Positions 4,049-15,181 of a DNA stretch of 64,000 nucleotides are shown here, one piece after another. The translations under genes were made by a program, and so were the position numbers. The notes under the pieces are model-generated. The model had not been told where the DNA came from. It saw only the letters and a program-made list of their open reading frames with translations, and did not search any database. This DNA is from an uncultured Verrucomicrobiota bacterium. GTDB lineage: Bacteria; Verrucomicrobiota; Kiritimatiellia; RFP12; UBA1067. Within the stretch, counting starts at the first letter, position 1. Each line of letters starts with the position of its first letter. The DNA is taken from the NCBI GenBank assembly GCA_947305775.1, contig CAMZEN010000007.1:61-64060 (forward strand), read 5' to 3'.

Positions 4049-4131
4049 TGAAGAGCAAACCGCCCTTCTCTCATCACGATTTCTTTGTTCTGCCGGACAG
4101 GGTGAAAAGCCCTACAAAAAGGAACAAGACA

Positions 4132-4839
4132 ATGAAGAAACTCATGATTGCAGCAGCGGTTATGGCCGCAGGCGTCGCGATGGCAGATGGAATCGTCAGC
4201 TCGGATGTAGTCGGCTACCAGACTAAGACGGTGACGACAGGGTTCTCACTTCAGACCCCTACGTTCACTGATGTCGGCGTGGATGGCTATGACCTTGCAA
4301 ACTTCAAGTTTGTCGATGGTGCTGGTGATGGAACTGAGACGATTCAGGTCCTTGACGCAAACGGTGTCAACAATGAAACTTGGACTTGGCTCAACGGAAA
4401 CGTGGGCATGGCTGACGGTTGGTATGATTTCATTACCTGGGATCCGATTGTAGCCACTATCGTCCCTGGTGATGGCTATCTCATGAACGTTTCGGCCGAC
4501 GTTGATATGCAGTTCGCCGGTCAGGTCAAAAATGGTAAGACCACAGTGACGATTCCGGCAGGGTTCTTCATCGTCGGTAACTGCACACCTTCGCCTGTTA
4601 GCATTCAGGATCTAAAGCTCGTTAATGCTGCTGGTGACGGAACCGAAACAATTCAGGTGCTTGATGAAAATGGTGTCAACAATGAGACCTGGACATGGCT
4701 CAACGGTAATGTTGGAATGGCTGACGGTTGGTACGATTTCATTACTTGGGAACCAATCGTTGCGACCATTGCGCCCGGCGAGGCTTTTCTCTTGAATGTG
4801 TCGGCTGATGTCGATATGGAGGTGCCTTCAGTCCTCTAA
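4132..4839 (+). CDS. secreted tandem-repeat protein, paralog A1 (signal peptide plus two ~95-aa internal repeats)
   Basis: ATG at 4132 with RBS AAAGGAAC. Signal peptide MKKLMIAAAVMAAGVAMA. An internal duplication (…GAGDGTETIQVLD(A/E)NGVNNETWTWLNGNVGMADGWYDFITW…VSADVDM…) occurs twice. The conserved 42-nt leader begins at TTCTGCCGGACAG. Confidence 0.7.
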   Translation: MKKLMIAAAVMAAGVAMADGIVSSDVVGYQTKTVTTGFSLQTPTFTDVGVDGYDLANFKFVDGAGDGTETIQVLDANGVNNETWTWLNGNVGMADGWYDFITWDPIVATIVPGDGYLMNVSADVDMQFAGQVKNGKTTVTIPAGFFIVGNCTPSPVSIQDLKLVNAAGDGTETIQVLDENGVNNETWTWLNGNVGMADGWYDFITWEPIVATIAPGEAFLLNVSADVDMEVPSVL

Positions 4840-4893
4840 AGGATTTTGGTGTGCGGCATAGGGTCGCATGCTTATAAAAGGAAAACAATCAAA

Positions 4894-5436
4894 ATGAAGA
4901 AACTAATGATATTGGTTGCGGCGGCATCCCTCGCAGGGCTTGTCAATGCTGCAACCTGCAACTGGTCAGGGTCTGCTGTCGCTCTCAAGTCTGCGACAGA
5001 TGATCCAACTAAGTATACGGTCTATCTGCTTGATGCTACGGTGACCGACGCTTCGACGATGGCGGGGTACCTCACCAATGGTGACACCTCCTACCTCGCC
5101 GCCGCTACGGTCACAACTACAGCCGGCATCGCAGTTGGCTCGCCAGCTACGGCTGCTCGTTGGGGCAAGAATGGCTTCGGCAGCTATACGGCTGGTGATG
5201 CTTACACGTATTACACAGTAATCTTCAATGATGCGGTCGATAGCGCCGACTACTTCATGATCACGGCTGAGAAGGCCGCAACCGTGCCTTCGTCTGGTTC
5301 GCTTGCAATGTCGTTCGGCTCGCAGGCCAGCAACTCGTGGGTTGCGATGGGATCTTCCCCCGTCCCGGAGCCGACTTCGGGTCTCCTCATGCTCCTCGGC
5401 ATGGCTGGCTTGGCGCTCCGCCGTCGCCGCGCGTAA
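4894..5436 (+). CDS. PEP-CTERM sorting domain-containing protein, paralog B1
   Basis: RBS AAAAGGAAAAC then ATG. Signal peptide MKKLMILVAAASLAGLVNA. C-terminal VPEPTSGLLMLLGMAGLALRRRRA is a canonical PEP-CTERM sorting signal: PEP motif, transmembrane helix, Arg cluster. Confidence 0.75.
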   Translation: MKKLMILVAAASLAGLVNAATCNWSGSAVALKSATDDPTKYTVYLLDATVTDASTMAGYLTNGDTSYLAAATVTTTAGIAVGSPATAARWGKNGFGSYTAGDAYTYYTVIFNDAVDSADYFMITAEKAATVPSSGSLAMSFGSQASNSWVAMGSSPVPEPTSGLLMLLGMAGLALRRRRA

Positions 5437-5455
5437 TCTGATTCAATCAGTTCGC

Positions 5456-5490
5456 AACAAGAAGCCGCACTCATCCGAGCGCGGCTTTCT
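5456..5490 (+). terminator. GC-rich hairpin (REP-like) plus T-run downstream of B1
   Basis: GAAGCCGCACTCatccGAGCGCGGCTTTCTTATTG. The inverted repeat AAGCCGC…GCGGCTT is followed by a T-rich tract. The same hairpin family recurs at 6816-6847 and 10062-10096. Confidence 0.5.
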
Positions 5491-5548
5491 TATTGATTCG
5501 TGAGGTGGCTTGTGGCATTGGCGGACGACATGGTATAATACGGTTGGA

Positions 5549-6805
5549 ATGCGTTTAGAGTACTCGAGAACGGGAAAGCAGTTCTTTTTCGTCACGCTTG
5601 GCGTAGCCGAAAGACGATCTGTGCTTTCGCAACTTGGCGACGAAAAGAGCCGCCCAGAGCTGACCGAACTTGGCGAGCTGGTGAAGGCTGCGCTAAGAGC
5701 GGTGCACCGTGTTTGGTCGGCGGCGACTGTAAGCAACTACGTGATAATGCCCGACCATATCCATTATCTTCTTATAGTCGATTACGACCGAGACAAGTCG
5801 ATAAGCCCGCTATTTATCGCTCACCGTATCGCTGACGCGGTTGAAATGGCCGTCGCCAGAGGATTGGAACGAACGGGGGCTTGCGCCCCCGCACCCCCAG
5901 CGATGCCACCATCGCTAGCGACTCGCGCCCCAGCACTCCAAGCGATGCCACTACCATTGGCGACTCGCGCCCCAGCGCCTCCAACCGAGGGCGAGGCATT
6001 GAGAAAGCGACTGGCCGAGGAGCGCGTAGCAAAGATGGTCGCGCTCTTTAAAGTCGCCATAAAGGCCGCCAATCGCCGCGCAGCCGCTGGCTTGCTGAAG
6101 GTCGATAGTGGGCTTTGCTTCGGCGAGGCGGCTGGCTATAGCGCGGCGGCAGCTGGCGAAACGGCTGGGGGTGCGGGGGCGCGAGCCCCCGTCCGTTCCG
6201 TCGTCTTCGCCCGCGATTGCTACATTGAGCTTTCTTTTGACTCGCGCCAGCTAAAGGCCATTCGCAACTACATAAAGCTCAACCCAGCGCGCGCCCTTTG
6301 GAAGCTTCGCAACCCCGACCTCTTTCTACGCCATCGCGCAATAAAGGCGCATCGCCTCGCGCCGCTTGCGCCATTGAGCTTTGACGGCATTGGCGCCCTC
6401 ACCCTGCTAGGCTCGCCTTTTTTGTTTCATGTGCGGCTCACGCTAAAGAAGACAGTAGCCGAGCATGCCGTAGCCATAGAGGAGGTCGTCGAGAATGCGC
6501 GACGCGGAATGGTGCCGGTATCGGGCTTCATCTCGCCAGGCGAAAAAGAGGCGCTTAAGCGTCTCAAGGCCGAGCCTCGCGCACGCTTCGTGAAGCTTTT
6601 GCCTTATGCGTTGCCGTCGCGCTACGACCCCTCTGCCGAAGACAGCCGCGAAATCGCCGCAGGGAGAATGCTCATTCTCTCGCCATTTAGCGACACGCCG
6701 GCCATCTCGTCGGTTGAGATGAAGCGCGAGCCATCGGCAGCCCACGCCTTCCGTCGTAACTGCCTAGCCATGAACGACATCGCCGCAAAGCTTTGCAGTG
6801 AATAA
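5549..6805 (+). CDS. IS200-like / REP-associated tyrosine transposase (RAYT-like, Transposase_17 HUH Y1) with in-frame low-complexity insertion and C-terminal extension
   Basis: N-terminal region matches the RAYT pattern (…SRTGKQFFFVTLGVAERRSVL…ELV…YVIMPDHIHYLLIV, the HUH motif). A downstream catalytic-Tyr helix (KAIRNYIKLNPARALW) is present. 5876-6190 is a 315-bp in-frame segment bounded by 24-bp inverted repeats and containing a 42-bp tandem duplication. The ORF could begin at 5510; 5549 gives an RAYT-like N-terminus. A TATAAT box lies 8 nt upstream. Confidence 0.65.
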   Translation: MRLEYSRTGKQFFFVTLGVAERRSVLSQLGDEKSRPELTELGELVKAALRAVHRVWSAATVSNYVIMPDHIHYLLIVDYDRDKSISPLFIAHRIADAVEMAVARGLERTGACAPAPPAMPPSLATRAPALQAMPLPLATRAPAPPTEGEALRKRLAEERVAKMVALFKVAIKAANRRAAAGLLKVDSGLCFGEAAGYSAAAAGETAGGAGARAPVRSVVFARDCYIELSFDSRQLKAIRNYIKLNPARALWKLRNPDLFLRHRAIKAHRLAPLAPLSFDGIGALTLLGSPFLFHVRLTLKKTVAEHAVAIEEVVENARRGMVPVSGFISPGEKEALKRLKAEPRARFVKLLPYALPSRYDPSAEDSREIAAGRMLILSPFSDTPAISSVEMKREPSAAHAFRRNCLAMNDIAAKLCSE

Positions 6806-6815
6806 ACAATGAAGC

Positions 6816-6847
6816 CGCACTCGAAAGAGTGCGGCTTCTTTTGCGTT
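6816..6847. terminator. bidirectional hairpin terminator / REP-like hairpin between convergent genes
   Basis: GAAGCCGCACTCgaaaGAGTGCGGCTTCTTTT lies between the stop of the plus-strand transposase-like gene (6805) and the stop of minus-strand B2 (6862). U-runs are present on both strands. Confidence 0.55.
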
Positions 6848-6861
6848 CTGACTGAATCAGA

Positions 6862-7404
6862 TTACGCGCGGCGACGACGAAGCGCCAAGCCAGCCATGCC
6901 GAGGAGCATGAGGAGGCCAGAGGTCGGCTCTGGGACGGGGGAAGACCCCATCGCAACCCACGAGTTGCTGGCCTGCGAGCCAAACGCCATCTGAAGCGAG
7001 CCCGACGAAGGCACGGTTGCGGCCTTCTCAGCCGTGATCATGAAGTAATCCGCACTATCGATCGCATCATTGAATACGACAGTATAATACGTGTAGGCAT
7101 CACCGGCGGTATAGCTGCCGAAGCCATTGTAGCCCCAGCGAGCAGCCGTAACTGGCGAGCCAACTGCGATGCCGGCTGTAGTTGTAACCGTAGCGGCAGC
7201 GAGGTAGGAGGTATCACCCTTAGCAAGGTAACCCGCCATCGTCGAAGCGTCGGTCACAGAAGCATCAAGCAGAACTACTGCGTACTTCGTTGGATCATCT
7301 GTGGCAGACTGGAGCGCGACAGCAGCTCCAGACCAGTTGCAGGTTGCAGCATTGACAAGCCCTGCGAGGGATGCCGCCGCAACAAATATCATTAGTTTCT
7401 TCAT
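6862..7404 (-). CDS. PEP-CTERM sorting domain-containing protein, paralog B2
   Basis: MKKLMIFVAAASLAGLVNAATCNWSG… ends with VPEPTSGLLMLLGMAGLALRRRRA. About 85-90% identical to B1, in inverted orientation. Confidence 0.75.
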   Translation of the reverse strand: MKKLMIFVAAASLAGLVNAATCNWSGAAVALQSATDDPTKYAVVLLDASVTDASTMAGYLAKGDTSYLAAATVTTTAGIAVGSPVTAARWGYNGFGSYTAGDAYTYYTVVFNDAIDSADYFMITAEKAATVPSSGSLQMAFGSQASNSWVAMGSSPVPEPTSGLLMLLGMAGLALRRRRA

Positions 7405-7456
7405 TTTGTTTATTTTCCTTTCCAGCATGCGACCCTATGCCGCACACCAAAATCCT

Positions 7457-8163
7457 TTAGAGGACCGAAGGCACCTCCATATCGACATCAGCCGACACAT
7501 TCATAAGGAACGCTTCGCCGGGAGCAATGGTAGCATCGATTGATTCCCAAGTGACGGAATCGTACCAGCCGTCAGCCATGCCAACGTTTCCGTTGAGCCA
7601 CGCCCAAGTTACATTGTTAACACCATTTTCATCAAGCACCTGAATAACTTCGGTGCCGTCACCTGCAGCATTAACGAGCTTCAGGCTCTGGATGCTAATA
7701 GGCATAGGCGTGCAGTTACCGGCAACGAAGAACCCCGTTGGAACCGTCACTGTGGTCTTGCCATTTTTGACCTGACCGGCGAACTGCATATCAACATCAG
7801 CAGAGACATTCATGAGATAGCCATCACCAGGAACGATAGTGGCAGCAATAGGCTCCCAAGAGACGGAATCATACCAACCGTCAGGCATGCCCACGTTTCC
7901 GTTGAGCCACGCCCATGTCTCATTGTTGACGCCGTTCGCATCGAGAACCTGAATAACTTCAGTTCCGTCGCCGGCACCATTGACAAACTTGAAGTTTGCA
8001 AGGTCATAGCCATCCACGCCGACATCAGTGAACGTAGGGGTCTGAAGTGAGAACCCTGTCGTCACCGTCTTAGTCTGGTAGCCGACTACATCCGAGCTGA
8101 CGATTCCATCTGCCATCGCGACGCCTGCGGCCATAACCGCTGCTGCAATCATGAGTTTCTTCA
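7457..8163 (-). CDS. secreted tandem-repeat protein, paralog A2
   Basis: Signal peptide MKKLMIAAAVMAAGVAMADGIVSSDVVGYQTKT. Same two-repeat architecture as A1. The conserved leader (reverse complement TTCTGCCGGACAGGGTGAAAATCCCTACAAAAAGGAACAAGACA) sits at 8164-8207. Confidence 0.7.
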
Positions 8164-8419
8164 TTGTCTTGTTCCTTTTTGTAGGGATTTTCACCCTGTC
8201 CGGCAGAAGTAAGAAATTCAGCAGTCTCCCTTGGGTCGCAATTAGGGGTTCGCTCTCAGGCGAACGACTTGGTTGCGAATGTCCGTTCAACTCTTGACTT
8301 TCCAACTCCTTTCGGTGTTTTTGTTTTCCCCCGTGTAGCACCGCGCCCACTGTCAGGATTTGCCGCTCTAGCCTTCACAAGCCATAACCTTGGTCTGATG
8401 GGCCTTTACGACAATGGGA

Positions 8420-8428: not shown

Positions 8429-8674
8429 AATTCTCGAGCGGCAGCGCAAGGGGGTATTTTGAGAAATATTGCAGACCTCATAAAGAGCGGCACAGAGACA
8501 TAGCAGAAAGTTATATTCACTTGTATTTTTGCTTTGTTAGACTTCATCGGCCACTATGTGCGATTGATACAGGGTGTCGTGCGGCTTTGCACATTGCGCA
8601 CGCCGACAAATTAATGAGTGTATTTAGCCATTCTGCCGGACAGGGTGAAAAGCCCTACAAAAAGGAACAAGACA

Positions 8675-9397
8675 ATGAAGAAACTCATGATTGCAGCGGC
8701 GGTTATGGCCGCCGGAGTCGCAATGGCAGATGGAATCGTAAGCTCGGATGTCGTCGGCTATCAGACAAAGACAACCGTAAGCGGGTTCAACTTCTTTACT
8801 CCTACGTTCAAGCAGGTAGGGGCTCCTGGAAAAACATTCAACATCAATGATATCGTTCTCGATCCAACAACAGCAACTGGTTACGGCGATAACATTCAGA
8901 TTCTTGACGAAGGTGGTTCTACAGTAGCCTCATATTACTGGATTCCAGCAGGTGATATTGTTGAAACTGCTTGCTGGACTGAAGATTTTGGGACGGCGGC
9001 GGATGTTGATTTTGAATCAGGTATGAGTTTCATCGTCGATACCTCAGCACCTGTTGCAGTTACTGTTGCTGGTCAAGTACTCACGGGAGATTTGACTGTT
9101 ACAGCAAACGCTGGATTCAATTTCATTGGCAATGCGTCACCAACAGCCATTGACATTCAGAAAATCACTCTTGATCCTACAACTGCAACTGGATATGGCG
9201 ACAACATTCAGATTCTTGATGACGGTGGAGCCACAATTGCATCGTATTATTGGATTCCTGCAGGAGACATAACAGAAAGCGCCTGCAGGACTGAGGATTT
9301 TGGTACAGCCGCTACTTATTCAATTGAGTCTGGATTAGGGTTCATTGTTGATGTCGCAAACGATAATGTTACTGTGACGATCCCCATGGCTCTCTAA
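8675..9397 (+). CDS. secreted tandem-repeat protein, paralog A3 (divergent repeat domain)
   Basis: Leader and first ~35 codons are about 90% identical at DNA level to A1/A2. The sequence then diverges into a different two-fold repeat (…LDPTTATGYGDNIQILD(E/D)GG…YYWIPAGDI…EDFGTAA…). Confidence 0.7.
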   Translation: MKKLMIAAAVMAAGVAMADGIVSSDVVGYQTKTTVSGFNFFTPTFKQVGAPGKTFNINDIVLDPTTATGYGDNIQILDEGGSTVASYYWIPAGDIVETACWTEDFGTAADVDFESGMSFIVDTSAPVAVTVAGQVLTGDLTVTANAGFNFIGNASPTAIDIQKITLDPTTATGYGDNIQILDDGGATIASYYWIPAGDITESACRTEDFGTAATYSIESGLGFIVDVANDNVTVTIPMAL

Positions 9398-9451
9398 ACG
9401 ATTTTGTCCGGCAATGGGTCGGATGAATACAAAGAAAAGGAAAATAACAAA

Positions 9452-10039
9452 ATGAAAAAGATAATGCTTGCGCTCAGTATAGCGCTTACAGCAGGGGTGA
9501 TGCAGGCTGCGTCACTTAACTGGGTTGTAGCAGGAGTCACCCTGCCAGAAACAACAACACCCGCAAATGGCGTTGCTGTCTATATGTTCCTTACGGCTGC
9601 TGGTGGAAACACCTTAAGCTTCGTTCCTACTGCATCACTTACAACCGTTTCTGAGGTTGAGAGTGCTATTACAGGGGGTACATTTACCGGTGCGGGTGCA
9701 TACGTTAGTTCAACGCTGAATTCGTCAGGTGCCACTACAGCGGCAACAGGCGTCAGCACTTCTTTTGGAGCTGGCGATTCGCTCACGGCATTTGCAGTCA
9801 TTTTTGACAATGCAGATGTATCGCTAGCGACAAGCTATATGATCGCTCAAAGCGCGACTGGCGATACTGAACTTTCTCAATCGTGGACATCATCAACAGG
9901 CGCGAAAGTTCTTAACTGGGGCAACCAGACAACCAACGGCACGACCTGGACTTCAATGGCCGCCGTCCCAGAGCCGACGAGCGGATTGCTCATGCTCCTC
10001 GGCATGGCTGGCTTGGCGCTTCGTCGTCGCCGCGCGTAA
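9452..10039 (+). CDS. PEP-CTERM sorting domain-containing protein, paralog B3 (divergent mature domain)
   Basis: RBS AAAAGGAAAA. Signal peptide MKKIMLALSIALTAGVMQA. The Thr/Ser/Gly-rich middle is unlike B1/B2. The final ~75 nt encoding VPEPTSGLLMLLGMAGLALRRRRA are nearly identical to B1/B2. Confidence 0.75.
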   Translation: MKKIMLALSIALTAGVMQAASLNWVVAGVTLPETTTPANGVAVYMFLTAAGGNTLSFVPTASLTTVSEVESAITGGTFTGAGAYVSSTLNSSGATTAATGVSTSFGAGDSLTAFAVIFDNADVSLATSYMIAQSATGDTELSQSWTSSTGAKVLNWGNQTTNGTTWTSMAAVPEPTSGLLMLLGMAGLALRRRRA

Positions 10040-10061
10040 CCGTCGATTAAGCCCGACAACG

Positions 10062-10096
10062 AAAGAAGCCGCACTCCTTCGAGTGCGGCTTTTATT
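10062..10096 (+). terminator. REP-like hairpin terminator downstream of B3
   Basis: GAAGCCGCACTCcttcGAGTGCGGCTTTTATTTATTG. Perfect 11-bp stem followed by a T-run. Confidence 0.55.
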
Positions 10097-10109
10097 TATT
10101 GACCAATGA

Positions 10110-10275
10110 CTGTTTGTGGTATTGACGGGTGACATGATATAATACAAATGCAATGCGTTTAGAATACTCGAAAACCAGGAAGCGCATAACCCGTCGGCTG
10201 CACACGCATTTCGCCGCAATTGCCTCGCAATGAACGACATCGCCACGAAGCTTTGCGGTGAATATAATAAAGCCG
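10110..10275 (+). pseudogene. internally deleted remnant of the IS200/RAYT-like gene (5' ~60 bp joined to 3' ~90 bp)
   Basis: 10121-10190 aligns to 5520-5580 (…GATATAATAC…ATGCGTTTAGAATACTCGAAAAC…). 10195-10270 aligns to 6735-6805 (…CATTTCGCCGCAATTGCCTCGCAATGAACGACATCGCCACGAAGCTTTGCGGTGAATA…). Confidence 0.5.
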
Positions 10276-10309
10276 CGCTGGGGTAAGATGTGCTATAATA
10301 TGCTACATC

Positions 10310-10684
10310 ATGGAAGCAAAACCATTAGGCATAATCGCAACTGTCGCCATGCTCGTCATGAGCAACCTTTTCATGACCTTCGCCTGGTATTGGCACCTTC
10401 GGCTCCAAAAGCCCGGCGCATCACATTGGCCCCTTCTCGCCATAATATTTGTGAGCTGGCTGATCGCCCTGGTCGAATACATGATAGCCGTTCCGGCCAA
10501 CAGGGTAGGTGTAGCCTCCGGCCTTAACGTCGCGCAGCTCAAGATAATCCAGGAGGTGGTTACCGTCTGCGTATTCGTTCCGTTCATGATCCTTTTCATG
10601 GGCGAGAAATGGCGTTGGGACTACCTCTGGGCCCTTCTGTGCATGGTGGGCGCTGTCTACTTCGTCAACCGGTCCAAGCTCTAG
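10310..10684 (+). CDS. DMT-family small membrane protein (DUF486)
   Basis: 124-aa protein with four predicted transmembrane helices. The SNLFMTFAWYWHLRL motif is typical of the DUF486 family. A TATAAT box lies ~10 nt upstream of the ATG, suggesting a possible leaderless transcript. Confidence 0.65.
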   Translation: MEAKPLGIIATVAMLVMSNLFMTFAWYWHLRLQKPGASHWPLLAIIFVSWLIALVEYMIAVPANRVGVASGLNVAQLKIIQEVVTVCVFVPFMILFMGEKWRWDYLWALLCMVGAVYFVNRSKL

Positions 10685-14572: not shown

Positions 14573-15181
14573 TCATGATCCAGGATGAACGGGATGTCCA
14601 CCAGCCTTGCACAACGGGCACTCCTCGGCCGTCCAGGTCGTAGGCGTCATCTGGACGAGCGAGAACATAGGTATATCGCCAAAAGTCACCTTTCCGCCGG
14701 ACCTGTCGACAAGCAGCACGACTGCGGCGACTTCGCATCCCGCCGCCTTCACGAGATCGATTGTCTCCTGAACGCGCCCGCCTTTCGTGACGACATCCTC
14801 CGCAACGACATACCTCTCGCCTGGCTTGAGCGTGAATCTGCGCATCGCAAGAACCGTGTTTGGCTTGCCGGTTGCGTCCACACCCTCACCCTGCACCTTC
14901 TCCGCGAAAACACACTTTACGTCAAGCGCGCGAGCAACCTCGTGCCCGACAAGAATACCGCCGACGGCAGGCGAGATAACGCCGTCCACGCGCCCAAGGT
15001 CGCACCCCGCCTTGGCCTTCTCGACCACAGCATCGCAAAGCTTCGCGGCGATGCGGGGATAGCGCAGCACATTCGCACACTGGAAATACCTGTCGGAATG
15101 AAGCTTGGACCTTAGCTCGAAATGCCCGTCCAGCAATGCGCCAGTTTCCTTGAATGCCTCCAAAACCTCTTCTTGGGTCAT
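14573..15181 (-). CDS. pyrE: orotate phosphoribosyltransferase
   Basis: PRPP-binding motif YVVAEDVVTKGGRVQETIDLVKAAG. Overall type-I PRTase fold sequence. 202 aa. Confidence 0.8.
   Translation of the reverse strand: MTQEEVLEAFKETGALLDGHFELRSKLHSDRYFQCANVLRYPRIAAKLCDAVVEKAKAGCDLGRVDGVISPAVGGILVGHEVARALDVKCVFAEKVQGEGVDATGKPNTVLAMRRFTLKPGERYVVAEDVVTKGGRVQETIDLVKAAGCEVAAVVLLVDRSGGKVTFGDIPMFSLVQMTPTTWTAEECPLCKAGGHPVHPGS

What the first reader, a model, noticed from the sequence alone, without database searches (positions are those of the whole stretch)
10062..10275. Deletion derivative of the RAYT-like element retaining both ends and REP-like hairpins
Downstream of B3 the same hairpin (AAGCCGCACTC-n5-GAGTGCGGCTT) is followed by ~60 bp matching the 5' end of the gene at 5520-5580. 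That is fused directly to ~90 bp matching its 3' end at 6735-6805. In the full copy the hairpin occurs at both flanks (5459-5486 and 6819-6845). A unit with REP-like hairpin, transposase ends and a deleted interior is what a non-autonomous MITE-like derivative of an IS200/IS605 or REP/RAYT system looks like. It also shows that the A-B-RAYT module was the duplicated unit.
Basis: seen in the sequence. Interest (0 to 1): 0.55.

Follow-up and report, generated by a model that had tools for sequence, protein, structure and literature searches.

The report
Decayed relic of HUH-DprA-like gene
The short stretch is a broken, non-coding leftover of a second copy of an unusual transposase-like gene, and I found no evidence that it is a miniature mobile element; the hairpin beside it is the transcription terminator of the neighbouring surface-protein gene.

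Summary
The core observation holds. Window 10114-10183 matches the promoter and first 10 codons of the gene at 5549-6805. It is fused at a GAAGC microhomology to 10179-10279, which matches the last 26 codons. About 1.14 kb is missing.

- The parent protein does have an IS200/RAYT-type HUH-tyrosine fold, but it is fused to a DprA-like domain.
- The AAGCCGCACTC hairpin is the intrinsic terminator of the PEP-CTERM genes. It also follows such genes where no HUH gene is present.
- It occurs only three times in 64 kb.
- The relic keeps only one full hairpin. The right one is a half arm.
- The two halves of the relic are out of frame and the stop codon is mutated.
- No second copy of the junction was found in the window, in about 50 related loci or in JGI metagenomes.
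- Decayed copies in other genomes each have a different junction.
- The retained 3' codons differ from the full copy mainly at synonymous sites, so the second copy was long functional and was deleted recently.

Verdict: an ordinary pseudogene scar. The uncharacterised parent family, with a conserved intragenic G-rich inverted repeat, is the more interesting item.

The parts
9452..10039 (+). B3, PEP-CTERM surface-protein gene (ORF from 9404; likely start ATG 9452)
   Evidence: Pfam PEP-CTERM 26.2 bits, above the cutoff of 20.7. The last 80 nt are 86-90% identical to B1 and B2.
10064..10093 (+). Intrinsic terminator of B3: 13-bp stem, 4-nt loop, then TTTTATTTATT
   Evidence: Called as terminator-like. 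Folds at -22.2 kcal/mol, z -7.2. The same hairpin type follows PEP-CTERM genes that lack an HUH gene.
10094..10152 (+). Relic of the HUH gene's upstream region, with extended -10 TGATATAAT at 10133-10141
   Evidence: Aligns with the upstream regions of six homologous genes, and the TGnTATAAT is invariant.
10153..10183 (+). First ~10 codons of the HUH gene (MRLEYSKTRK)
   Evidence: 70 nt (10114-10183) are 80% identical to 5510-5579. Translation.
10179..10183 (+). Deletion junction, GAAGC microhomology
   Evidence: Both flanks of the missing 5580-6720 carry AAAGC/GAAGC.
10188..10265 (+). Last ~26 codons of the HUH gene, out of frame with the 5' part, stop TAA changed to TAT
   Evidence: Ten synonymous versus two non-synonymous codon differences to 6731-6802.
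10266..10279 (+). Half arm (AAAGCCGCGCT) of the hairpin that once followed the gene
   Evidence: Collinear with 6806-6821. No stem-loop remains (z +0.8).
5549..6805 (+). Intact parent gene: 418-aa Y1-HUH domain, variable loop and DprA-like domain. Promoter 5512-5539.
   Evidence: AlphaFold model has pLDDT 82.9. Foldseek hits are IS200/IS605 TnpA structures for the N-terminus and DprA/ShosA for the C-terminus. H70, H72 and Y241 are invariant in 55 homologues. Promoter.
5462..5487 (+). Terminator hairpin of B1
   Evidence: -20.1 kcal/mol, z -4.8.
6811..6838 (.). Bidirectional terminator hairpin shared by the HUH gene (+) and B2 (-)
   Evidence: Called on both strands. z -6.3 and -7.6.
4079..5499 (+). 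Left arm of the 1.42-kb inverted repeat (A1 4132-4839, B1 4894-5436, terminator)
   Evidence: 89% complementary to 6800-8217.
6800..8217 (-). Right arm of the inverted repeat (B2 6862-7404, A2 7457-8164)
8675..9397 (+). A3, partner gene of B3. Its leader 8631-8772 is 94% identical to those of A1 and A2.
   Evidence: A1/A3 47% aa identity, B1/B3 37%.
5866..6199 (+). Intragenic 36-bp inverted repeat of G-rich hairpins (5866-5901 / 6164-6199) bracketing the variable loop
   Evidence: Present in 21 of 31 full-length homologues. Folds as a long stem, z -6.3.

Best explanation
Window 10094-10279 is a dead relic (pseudogene scar) of a second copy of a Y1-HUH/DprA-like gene. That copy once sat downstream of the PEP-CTERM gene pair A3-B3, just as the intact copy sits downstream of A1-B1.

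Shown:
- A single deletion of about 1.14 kb between two GAAGC/AAAGC pentamers removed codons 11-390. This includes the HUH motif, the catalytic tyrosine and the whole DprA-like domain.
- The two remaining halves are out of frame, and the stop codon has mutated.
- The hairpin on the left is the rho-independent terminator of B3.

Inferred:
- The deletion arose by replication slippage or illegitimate recombination.
- A further deletion removed everything to the right of the loop of the downstream hairpin. That probably took out a convergent B-A pair like B2-A2.
- The second copy was a working gene for most of the time since it diverged from the first, because most differences are synonymous. The inactivation is therefore recent.
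- The relic does nothing now, except perhaps contribute promoter-like hexamers upstream of the DUF486 gene.
For: - Homology and junction.
- Frame and stop.
- Ten synonymous versus two non-synonymous codon differences in the 24 retained 3' codons.
- Hairpins score as terminators with T-runs on the PEP-CTERM gene strand.
- Empty sites: in L050, modules 1 and 3 are 80% identical over 1.48 kb up to and including the hairpin and T-run. Only module 1 is followed by the HUH gene. L047_Bb has the window-type hairpin after a PEP-CTERM gene with no HUH gene. PEP-CTERM genes in other loci also end with a GC hairpin plus T-run.
- Copy number: 3 hairpins in 64 kb, all at PEP-CTERM gene ends. One relic.
- No solo-end copies in about 50 related loci apart from other decayed genes.
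- The junction is absent from JGI metagenomes.
- Independently decayed copies with different junctions occur in L031, L032, L033 and L037.
- The family is mostly one locus per species genome.
Against: - The complete source genome could not be searched, so distant copies of the relic cannot be excluded.
- Only one occupied/empty pair (L050) defines where the HUH unit starts.
- L047 keeps a weak hairpin upstream of the HUH gene without a co-directional PEP-CTERM gene. The hairpin may therefore also travel with, or matter to, the HUH gene.
- Two independent breakpoints fall in the middle of a hairpin (relic right end; L038 left end). This could hint at hairpin-directed cleavage, although hairpins are also general deletion hotspots.
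Confidence: 0.72

Rival explanations
1. First reader's reading. The unit is a MITE/PATE- or REPIN-like non-autonomous element. It keeps the ends and hairpins recognised by the HUH transposase of the full copy and can be mobilised in trans.
For: - The parent protein has the IS200/IS605 TnpA fold with intact HUH and Tyr motifs.
- The left hairpin is perfect and identical in stem to the hairpin at 6812-6837.
- In IS200 the left-end hairpin also acts as a terminator (own knowledge), so a terminator shape does not by itself exclude an element end.
Against: - Only one complete hairpin is left.
- The hairpins are present at empty sites and belong to the PEP-CTERM genes.
- The right-hand hairpin is absent wherever no convergent PEP-CTERM gene exists (L038, L047, L049).
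- Single copy, with a unique junction.
- The ends are only about 80% identical to the resident full copy.
- The synonymous excess shows the divergence predates the deletion.
- Other decayed copies have different junctions.
Confidence: 0.06
2. The second copy did not arise by duplication of an A-B-HUH module. The HUH unit (promoter plus gene, about 1.3 kb, without hairpins of its own) is, or was, mobile. It inserted independently just 3' of the T-run of PEP-CTERM-type terminators, and the copy behind B3 then decayed.
For: - The occupied/empty pair in L050 has homology ending right after the T-run.
- The gene lies in different contexts in close relatives: between PEP-CTERM genes (window, L050), between convergent T2SSF_N-like genes (L041), and next to toxin-antitoxin genes (L038, L042).
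- A3/B3 are only 47%/37% identical to A1/B1, while the HUH remnants are about 80% identical at DNA level.
- The relic's 3' part is nearer to the L038 gene (89%) than to the resident copy (82%).
Against: - Mostly one locus per genome.
- No terminal repeats, target duplication or conserved target motif could be defined.
- The 73-nt comparison (89% versus 82%) is not statistically decisive.
- The modules are mosaics with conserved ends, which recombination could also explain.
Confidence: 0.15
3. The relic is retained because it has been exapted. Its extended -10 (10133-10141) and the TATAAT created at the former stop codon (10263-10268) drive or tune the downstream DUF486 gene (10310-10684).
For: - The promoter scan reports 10240-10268 (10/12 matches).
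- TGATATAAT is conserved with the active-looking promoters of the homologues.
- The relic lies 30 nt upstream of the DUF486 start, on the same strand.
Against: - The DUF486 gene has its own TGCTATAAT at 10293-10301, 8 nt before its ATG.
- There are no expression data.
- Promoter-like hits in the region are no more frequent than in shuffles (3 found versus 5.8 expected).
Confidence: 0.07

Closest known systems
IS200/IS605 TnpA (Y1 HUH transposases; PDB 2xm3, 2vjv, 2ec2, 2f4f)
   Same: - The N-terminal ~105 residues superpose on these structures (TM 0.5-0.59 normalised to the target, rmsd 2.3-3.6 A).
- An HUH motif (MPDHIH) and a single tyrosine on a C-terminal helix (RxYIxxNP) are invariant.
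- There are weak Pfam Y1_Tnp hits, and one above the cutoff in a distant family member.
   Different: - 418 aa rather than ~130-150.
- A ~110-residue variable loop is inserted in the HUH domain, and a ~160-residue DprA-like domain is appended.
- No tnpB.
- No subterminal hairpins belonging to the unit.
- Mostly single copy.
REP-associated tyrosine transposases (RAYT/TnpAREP; PDB 4er8; Bertels et al. 2017, PMC5581495)
   Same: - HUH-Y1 fold.
- Usually one copy per genome.
- Associated with short GC-rich hairpins, here G-rich hairpins inside and beside the gene.
- Weak NCBIfam REP_Tyr_transpos match (E 8e-6).
   Different: - Score 25.8 bits against a cutoff of 80.
- Foldseek match to 4er8 is only E 0.046.
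- The hairpin named in the finding is not dispersed (3 per 64 kb).
- Genome-wide dispersal of the G-rich hairpin was not tested.
- There is an extra DprA-like domain.
DprA (DNA processing protein A) and ShosA
   Same: The C-terminal ~160 residues match H. pylori DprA (4ljr, 5mll; E 3e-4 to 8e-4, 20% identity) and ShosA 8zva (E 1.4e-4).
   Different: - No Pfam or PDB sequence-level hit.
- Fused to an HUH nuclease.
- No SAM or winged-helix DprA accessory domains were detected.
Non-autonomous derivatives of IS200/IS605 (PATEs/MITEs) and REPINs
   Same: Short, non-coding, derived from a Y1-transposase gene, and next to a hairpin.
   Different: - Those elements keep both functional ends and occur in many near-identical copies (own knowledge; REPINs: PMC5581495).
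- This is a single copy with one hairpin, which belongs to the neighbouring gene.
Rho-independent (intrinsic) terminators
   Same: An 11-13 bp GC-rich stem, a 4-nt loop and a T-rich tail, 25-30 nt after the stop codon of each PEP-CTERM gene. Bidirectional between the convergent genes.
   Different: None seen. This is what the hairpins look like.

Membership tests
IS200/IS605 insertion sequence | Y1 HUH transposase fold with HUH motif and catalytic Tyr | tested here: met
   Foldseek hits to ISDra2, IS608 and IS200 TnpA. H70, H72 and Y241 are invariant in 55 sequences. This applies to the full copy only; the relic lacks all of it.
IS200/IS605 insertion sequence | Subterminal hairpins at both ends that are part of the element | tested here: not met
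   The left hairpin is present at empty sites. The right hairpin occurs only where a convergent PEP-CTERM gene exists.
IS200/IS605 insertion sequence | Several copies per genome, or insertion polymorphism | tested here: inconclusive
   36 loci in about 32 species genomes, and one MAG with 4. One full copy and one relic in this window. The source genome was not available.
IS200/IS605 insertion sequence | Conserved 4-5 nt target 5' of the left end | tested here: inconclusive
   Only one occupied/empty pair. The boundary follows GGCTTTGTTT, the terminator T-run.
REP/RAYT system | Protein reaches the family model (NCBIfam REP_Tyr_transpos) | tested here: not met
   25.8 bits against a cutoff of 80, covering only profile positions 9-66 of 146.
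REP/RAYT system | Gene flanked by REP hairpins that are dispersed at high copy in extragenic space | tested here: not met
   This result is for the AAGCCGCACTC hairpin: 3 copies in 64 kb, all PEP-CTERM terminators. For the G-rich hairpin the test is inconclusive: 2 copies in the window, both intragenic, and tandem copies beside the gene in other genomes.
REP/RAYT system | Single copy per genome | tested here: met
   Mostly one locus per species genome. MAGs are incomplete.
MITE/PATE/REPIN-like non-autonomous element | Both element termini retained | tested here: not met
   The right hairpin is reduced to one arm and does not fold.
MITE/PATE/REPIN-like non-autonomous element | Multiple copies sharing the same internal structure | tested here: not met
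   No other copy in the window, in related loci or in JGI metagenomes. Other decayed copies have different junctions. Whole-genome test not possible.
Intrinsic terminator | GC-rich stem-loop followed by a T-run just after a stop codon | tested here: met
   Conserved with compensatory stem changes among homologous PEP-CTERM gene ends.
PEP-CTERM proteins (B1-B3) | C-terminal PEP-CTERM sorting signal | tested here: met
   Pfam PF07589 at 24.5-26.2 bits, above the cutoff of 20.7. TIGR02595 at 26.5 bits, above 16.
DprA family | Sequence match to the DNA_processg_A model, or a DprA structure match | tested here: inconclusive
   Fold match only. No Pfam or PDB sequence hit.

The most novel reading that the evidence does not exclude
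The 418-aa HUH-DprA-like protein is a domesticated single-strand DNA nuclease/recombinase whose cognate sites are hairpins. These could be the G-rich hairpins that form a conserved inverted repeat inside its own gene and arrays beside it, or the terminator hairpins between convergent surface-protein modules.

Its activity would generate the palindromic A-B->gene<-B-A layouts, the hairpin-centred breakpoints and the mosaic PEP-CTERM modules. That would make it a new kind of hairpin-directed rearrangement system for surface-protein loci in gut Kiritimatiellae. The relic would then be the remains of a second such centre.
Probability: 0.1. Interest if true: 0.65.

Novelty: new variant of a known kind. 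Interest (0 to 1): 0.27.

Why it matters
The relic itself matters little. It is a gene scar, and it shows that a terminator hairpin next to a transposase-like fragment can look like a miniature mobile element.

The parent gene is of moderate interest.
- It is a conserved but unannotated family: no Pfam, NCBIfam or PDB sequence hit above threshold, and 111 clusters at E <= 1e-30.
- It joins an IS200/RAYT-type HUH nuclease to a DprA-like ssDNA-binding domain.
- It carries a conserved intragenic pair of G-rich hairpins.
- It sits in variable, toxin-antitoxin- and integrase-rich islands between surface-protein genes of rumen and gut Kiritimatiellae.
- In the source record it is annotated only as a 256-aa C-terminal fragment.

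Tried and rejected
- Exact look-ups of the window's own proteins (P0062 and the DUF486 protein) in the contig index found nothing. The cluster look-up gave no accession. The source genome therefore could not be named or scanned.
A genome-wide hairpin count was then no longer possible.
- The junction 24-mer scan of metagenomes found nothing. A degenerate 3'-end pattern found only 2 contigs.
- The first structure model, from 16 sequences, was too poor (pLDDT 52). It was replaced by a 55-sequence model.
- PDB sequence searches found nothing useful.
- Rfam and tRNA scans of the window were empty.
- A literature search for an HUH-DprA fusion, or for PEP-CTERM in Kiritimatiellae, found nothing relevant.
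- A 23-nt identity at 15031-15053 looked like a further relic. It lies in a phosphoribosyltransferase gene (peptide IAAKLCD) and was rejected as coincidence.
- I considered an att-site-type 3' duplication made by an integrase, as in L046. I rejected it for the relic because the relic also carries the promoter and the first 10 codons.
- I checked for a small ORF in the frame of the relic's 3' part. No start codon is available.

Full report
**What is in the sequence**

The window carries three pairs of genes, A then B.
- A1-B1 is at 4132-5436 on the + strand.
- A2-B2 is at 8164-6862 on the - strand.
- A3-B3 is at 8675-10039 on the + strand.

Every B protein ends in a PEP-CTERM sorting signal (Pfam and TIGRFAM hits above cutoff).

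Between the convergent B1 and B2 lies a 418-aa gene (5549-6805, +). A 1.42-kb inverted repeat at 89% identity (4079-5499 / 6800-8217) surrounds it.

Downstream of B3, BLASTN shows two matches:
- 9960-10183 = 5357-5579 (77%, E 7e-41).
- 10179-10279 = 6721-6821 (79%, E 4e-18).

So the promoter and first 10 codons of the 418-aa gene are joined to its last 26 codons. The join is at a GAAGC/AAAGC pentamer present at both deletion edges, and 5580-6720 is missing.

**Corrections to the observation**
- The hairpin loop is 4 nt.
- The hairpins of the full copy are at 5462-5487 and 6812-6837.
- The relic keeps one complete hairpin (10066-10091). At its right end only one arm remains (AAAGCCGCGCT, 10269-10279), and that stretch does not fold better than shuffled sequence (z +0.8).
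- From ATG 10153 the relic reads MRLEYSKTRKRITRRLHTHFAAIASQ and then stops.
- The 3' part (PSAAHAFRRNCLAMNDIATKLCGE) is in another frame. It has no usable start codon, and its stop codon has become TAT.

It is a pseudogene.

**What the hairpins are**

All three are GC-rich stems of 11-13 bp with a 4-nt loop. On the strand of the adjacent B gene each is followed by a T-rich tail. The one at 6811-6838 is called as a terminator on both strands.

The motif occurs only three times in 64 kb, always 25-30 nt after a PEP-CTERM stop codon.

Related contigs supply 'empty sites'.
- In L050, modules 1 and 3 are 80% identical over 1.48 kb, up to and including the hairpin and T-run. Only module 1 is followed by the HUH gene. 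Homology ends right after GGCTTTGTTT.
- L047_Bb has the window-type hairpin after a PEP-CTERM gene with nothing HUH-like behind it.
- PEP-CTERM genes elsewhere also end in a GC hairpin plus T-run.
- A hairpin downstream of the HUH gene exists only where a convergent B gene supplies it (window, L001, L050). It is absent in L038, L047 and L049.

The hairpins are therefore terminators of the PEP-CTERM genes. They are not REP-like ends of an element.

One caveat: L047 keeps a weak hairpin upstream of the HUH gene without a co-directional B gene.

**What the parent gene is**

Pfam finds nothing for the whole protein. NCBIfam REP_Tyr_transpos matches weakly (25.8 bits, cutoff 80). With the variable loop removed, Pfam Y1_Tnp matches weakly (E 0.009).

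A 55-sequence AlphaFold model (pLDDT 82.9, pTM 0.71) matches two kinds of structure.
- The N-terminus matches IS200/IS605 TnpA structures (ISDra2, IS608, S. tokodaii, IS200; TM about 0.5-0.59 normalised to the target). It matches RAYT 4er8 more weakly.
- The C-terminus matches DprA (H. pylori, E about 3e-4, 20% identity) and ShosA.

The HUH histidines (H70, H72) and Y241 in RxYIxxNP are invariant. A distant family member (P0376) scores above the Pfam Y1_Tnp cutoff.

The family has over 660 close homologues with no annotation. It has 111 clusters (50% identity) at E <= 1e-30.

In species-representative genomes it occurs in gut and rumen Kiritimatiellae and relatives, mostly at one locus per genome. 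'RAYT-like' is thus right at the level of fold. It fails as family membership: the architecture (HUH domain, ~110-residue variable loop, DprA-like domain) is not that of a RAYT or an IS200 TnpA.

**Is the relic a miniature mobile element?**

The tests available all say no.
- It is single in the window.
- Its junction 24-mer is absent from JGI metagenomes.
- In about 450 kb around homologous genes there are no solo-end copies other than other decayed genes.
- Those decayed genes each have a different set of deletions (L031, L032, L033, L037). That is what independent decay gives, not amplification of one derivative.
- Its ends are only about 80% identical to the resident full copy.
- In the 24 retained 3' codons there are 10 synonymous and 2 non-synonymous codon differences. 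Most of the 18-20% divergence therefore accumulated while this copy was still a selected, working gene, and the deletion is recent.

The best reading is as follows. A second copy of the gene, in the same position behind a PEP-CTERM gene pair, was inactivated by a microhomology-mediated deletion. It then lost what lay to its right, from the hairpin loop onward.

The half arm at 10269-10279 suggests that this second locus also had a downstream hairpin. It was probably a convergent B-A pair. If so, the duplicated unit was the whole A-B->gene<-B-A palindrome, not just A-B-gene. That step is inference.

**Origin of the second copy**

Module duplication and independent insertion behind a B-type terminator cannot be separated with the data.
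- For insertion: there is one occupied/empty pair. The gene's contexts vary among close relatives: PEP-CTERM genes in the window and L050, convergent T2SSF_N-like genes in L041, and toxin-antitoxin genes in L038 and L042. A3/B3 are far more diverged from A1/B1 (47% and 37% aa) than the HUH remnants are.
- Against insertion: mostly one locus per genome, and no definable termini, target duplication or target motif.

**Comparison with what is known**

The relic is an ordinary pseudogene scar. The hairpins are ordinary terminators.

The parent gene resembles RAYTs in fold, in low copy number and in its association with GC-rich hairpins (defining features from PMC5581495). It differs in domain architecture and in failing the family model.

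I found no paper describing an HUH-DprA fusion. That is weak negative evidence only.

**Verdict**

The MITE/REP interpretation is not supported. Interest in the finding as stated is low.

The parent family, and its conserved intragenic inverted repeat of G-rich hairpins, deserve a separate look.
- The repeat is at 5866-5901 / 6164-6199.
- It is present in 21 of 31 full-length homologues.
- It folds as a long stem, z -6.3.

Noticed in passing
window 5866-5901 and 6164-6199; L005 3026-3214, L012 2751-2952, L016 2015-2299, L036 6337-6431, L027: A 36-bp inverted repeat of G-rich hairpins (GGAACGRACGGGGGC-n4-GCCCCCGCACCCCC) lies inside the HUH-DprA-like gene and brackets its variable loop. The same repeat sits at the same place in 21 of 31 full-length homologues. 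Similar hairpins stand in tandem just outside the gene in several genomes. This is a better REP candidate than the hairpin in the finding.
   Followed up: partly
window 4079-5499 / 6800-8217; L050 1-4300; L041 5900-7400; L042: The gene sits at the centre of inverted repeats made of whatever flanks it: A-B PEP-CTERM modules in the window and L050, a 143-bp relic of these in L001, and convergent copies of a T2SSF_N-like gene in L041. The cause is unknown.
   Followed up: partly
window 5549-6805: The source record's protein (P0062, 256 aa) starts at M163, so the HUH domain is not annotated. The whole 418-aa reading frame is conserved in hundreds of homologues.
   Followed up: yes
window 8067-8208 vs 8631-8772 vs 4088-4229: The leaders and signal-peptide regions of A1, A2 and A3 are 94% identical, and the PEP-CTERM tails 86-90%. 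The middles of A3/B3 are only 36-47% identical in protein to A1/B1. These are mosaic modules with conserved ends, and A2 and A3 are arranged divergently.
   Followed up: partly
L003 7286-8623, L004 7289-8755, L005 4569-6050, L031 10860-12134, L050 7337-7846, L046: A tyrosine integrase gene lies 56 nt downstream of the HUH gene in three genomes, and in the same island in two more. In L046 the integrase stop codon abuts the last ~60 codons of an HUH gene, and TTAAGGGCTTTCCGCC is repeated 330 nt apart. This may be an integration site in or beside the gene.
   Followed up: partly
L038, L042, L047, L001 flanks: Close homologues sit among PhD/PIN, RelB/PIN_3, HicAB and HipA-type toxin-antitoxin genes, DUF3800 and DUF4160/DUF2442. 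This is a variable island context.
   Followed up: no
window 5531-5539, 10133-10141, 10293-10301; most loci: An extended -10 (TGnTATAAT) lies about 8-12 nt before the ATG of the HUH gene in most homologues, and also before the DUF486 gene. This suggests leaderless or very short-leader mRNAs in this lineage.
   Followed up: no
window 10263-10268: The relic's former stop codon (GAATAA) has become GAATATAAT, creating a TATAAT hexamer 42 nt upstream of the DUF486 start.
   Followed up: no
window 15031-15053: There is a 23-nt exact identity to the 3' end of the L038 HUH gene. It lies inside a phosphoribosyltransferase gene (peptide IAAKLCD) and was judged coincidental.
   Followed up: yes
window 4306-4512/4615-4821, 7475-7681/7784-7990, 8841-9000/9153-9312: Each A gene contains an internal tandem duplication of ~309-312 nt, with 76-79% identity between the two halves.
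   Followed up: no
L021, L024, L027, L034 (contig starts): Several MAG contigs break inside the gene at the G-rich hairpin region. This suggests the repeat confounds assembly, and that the gene's copy number in MAGs may be under-counted.
   Followed up: no
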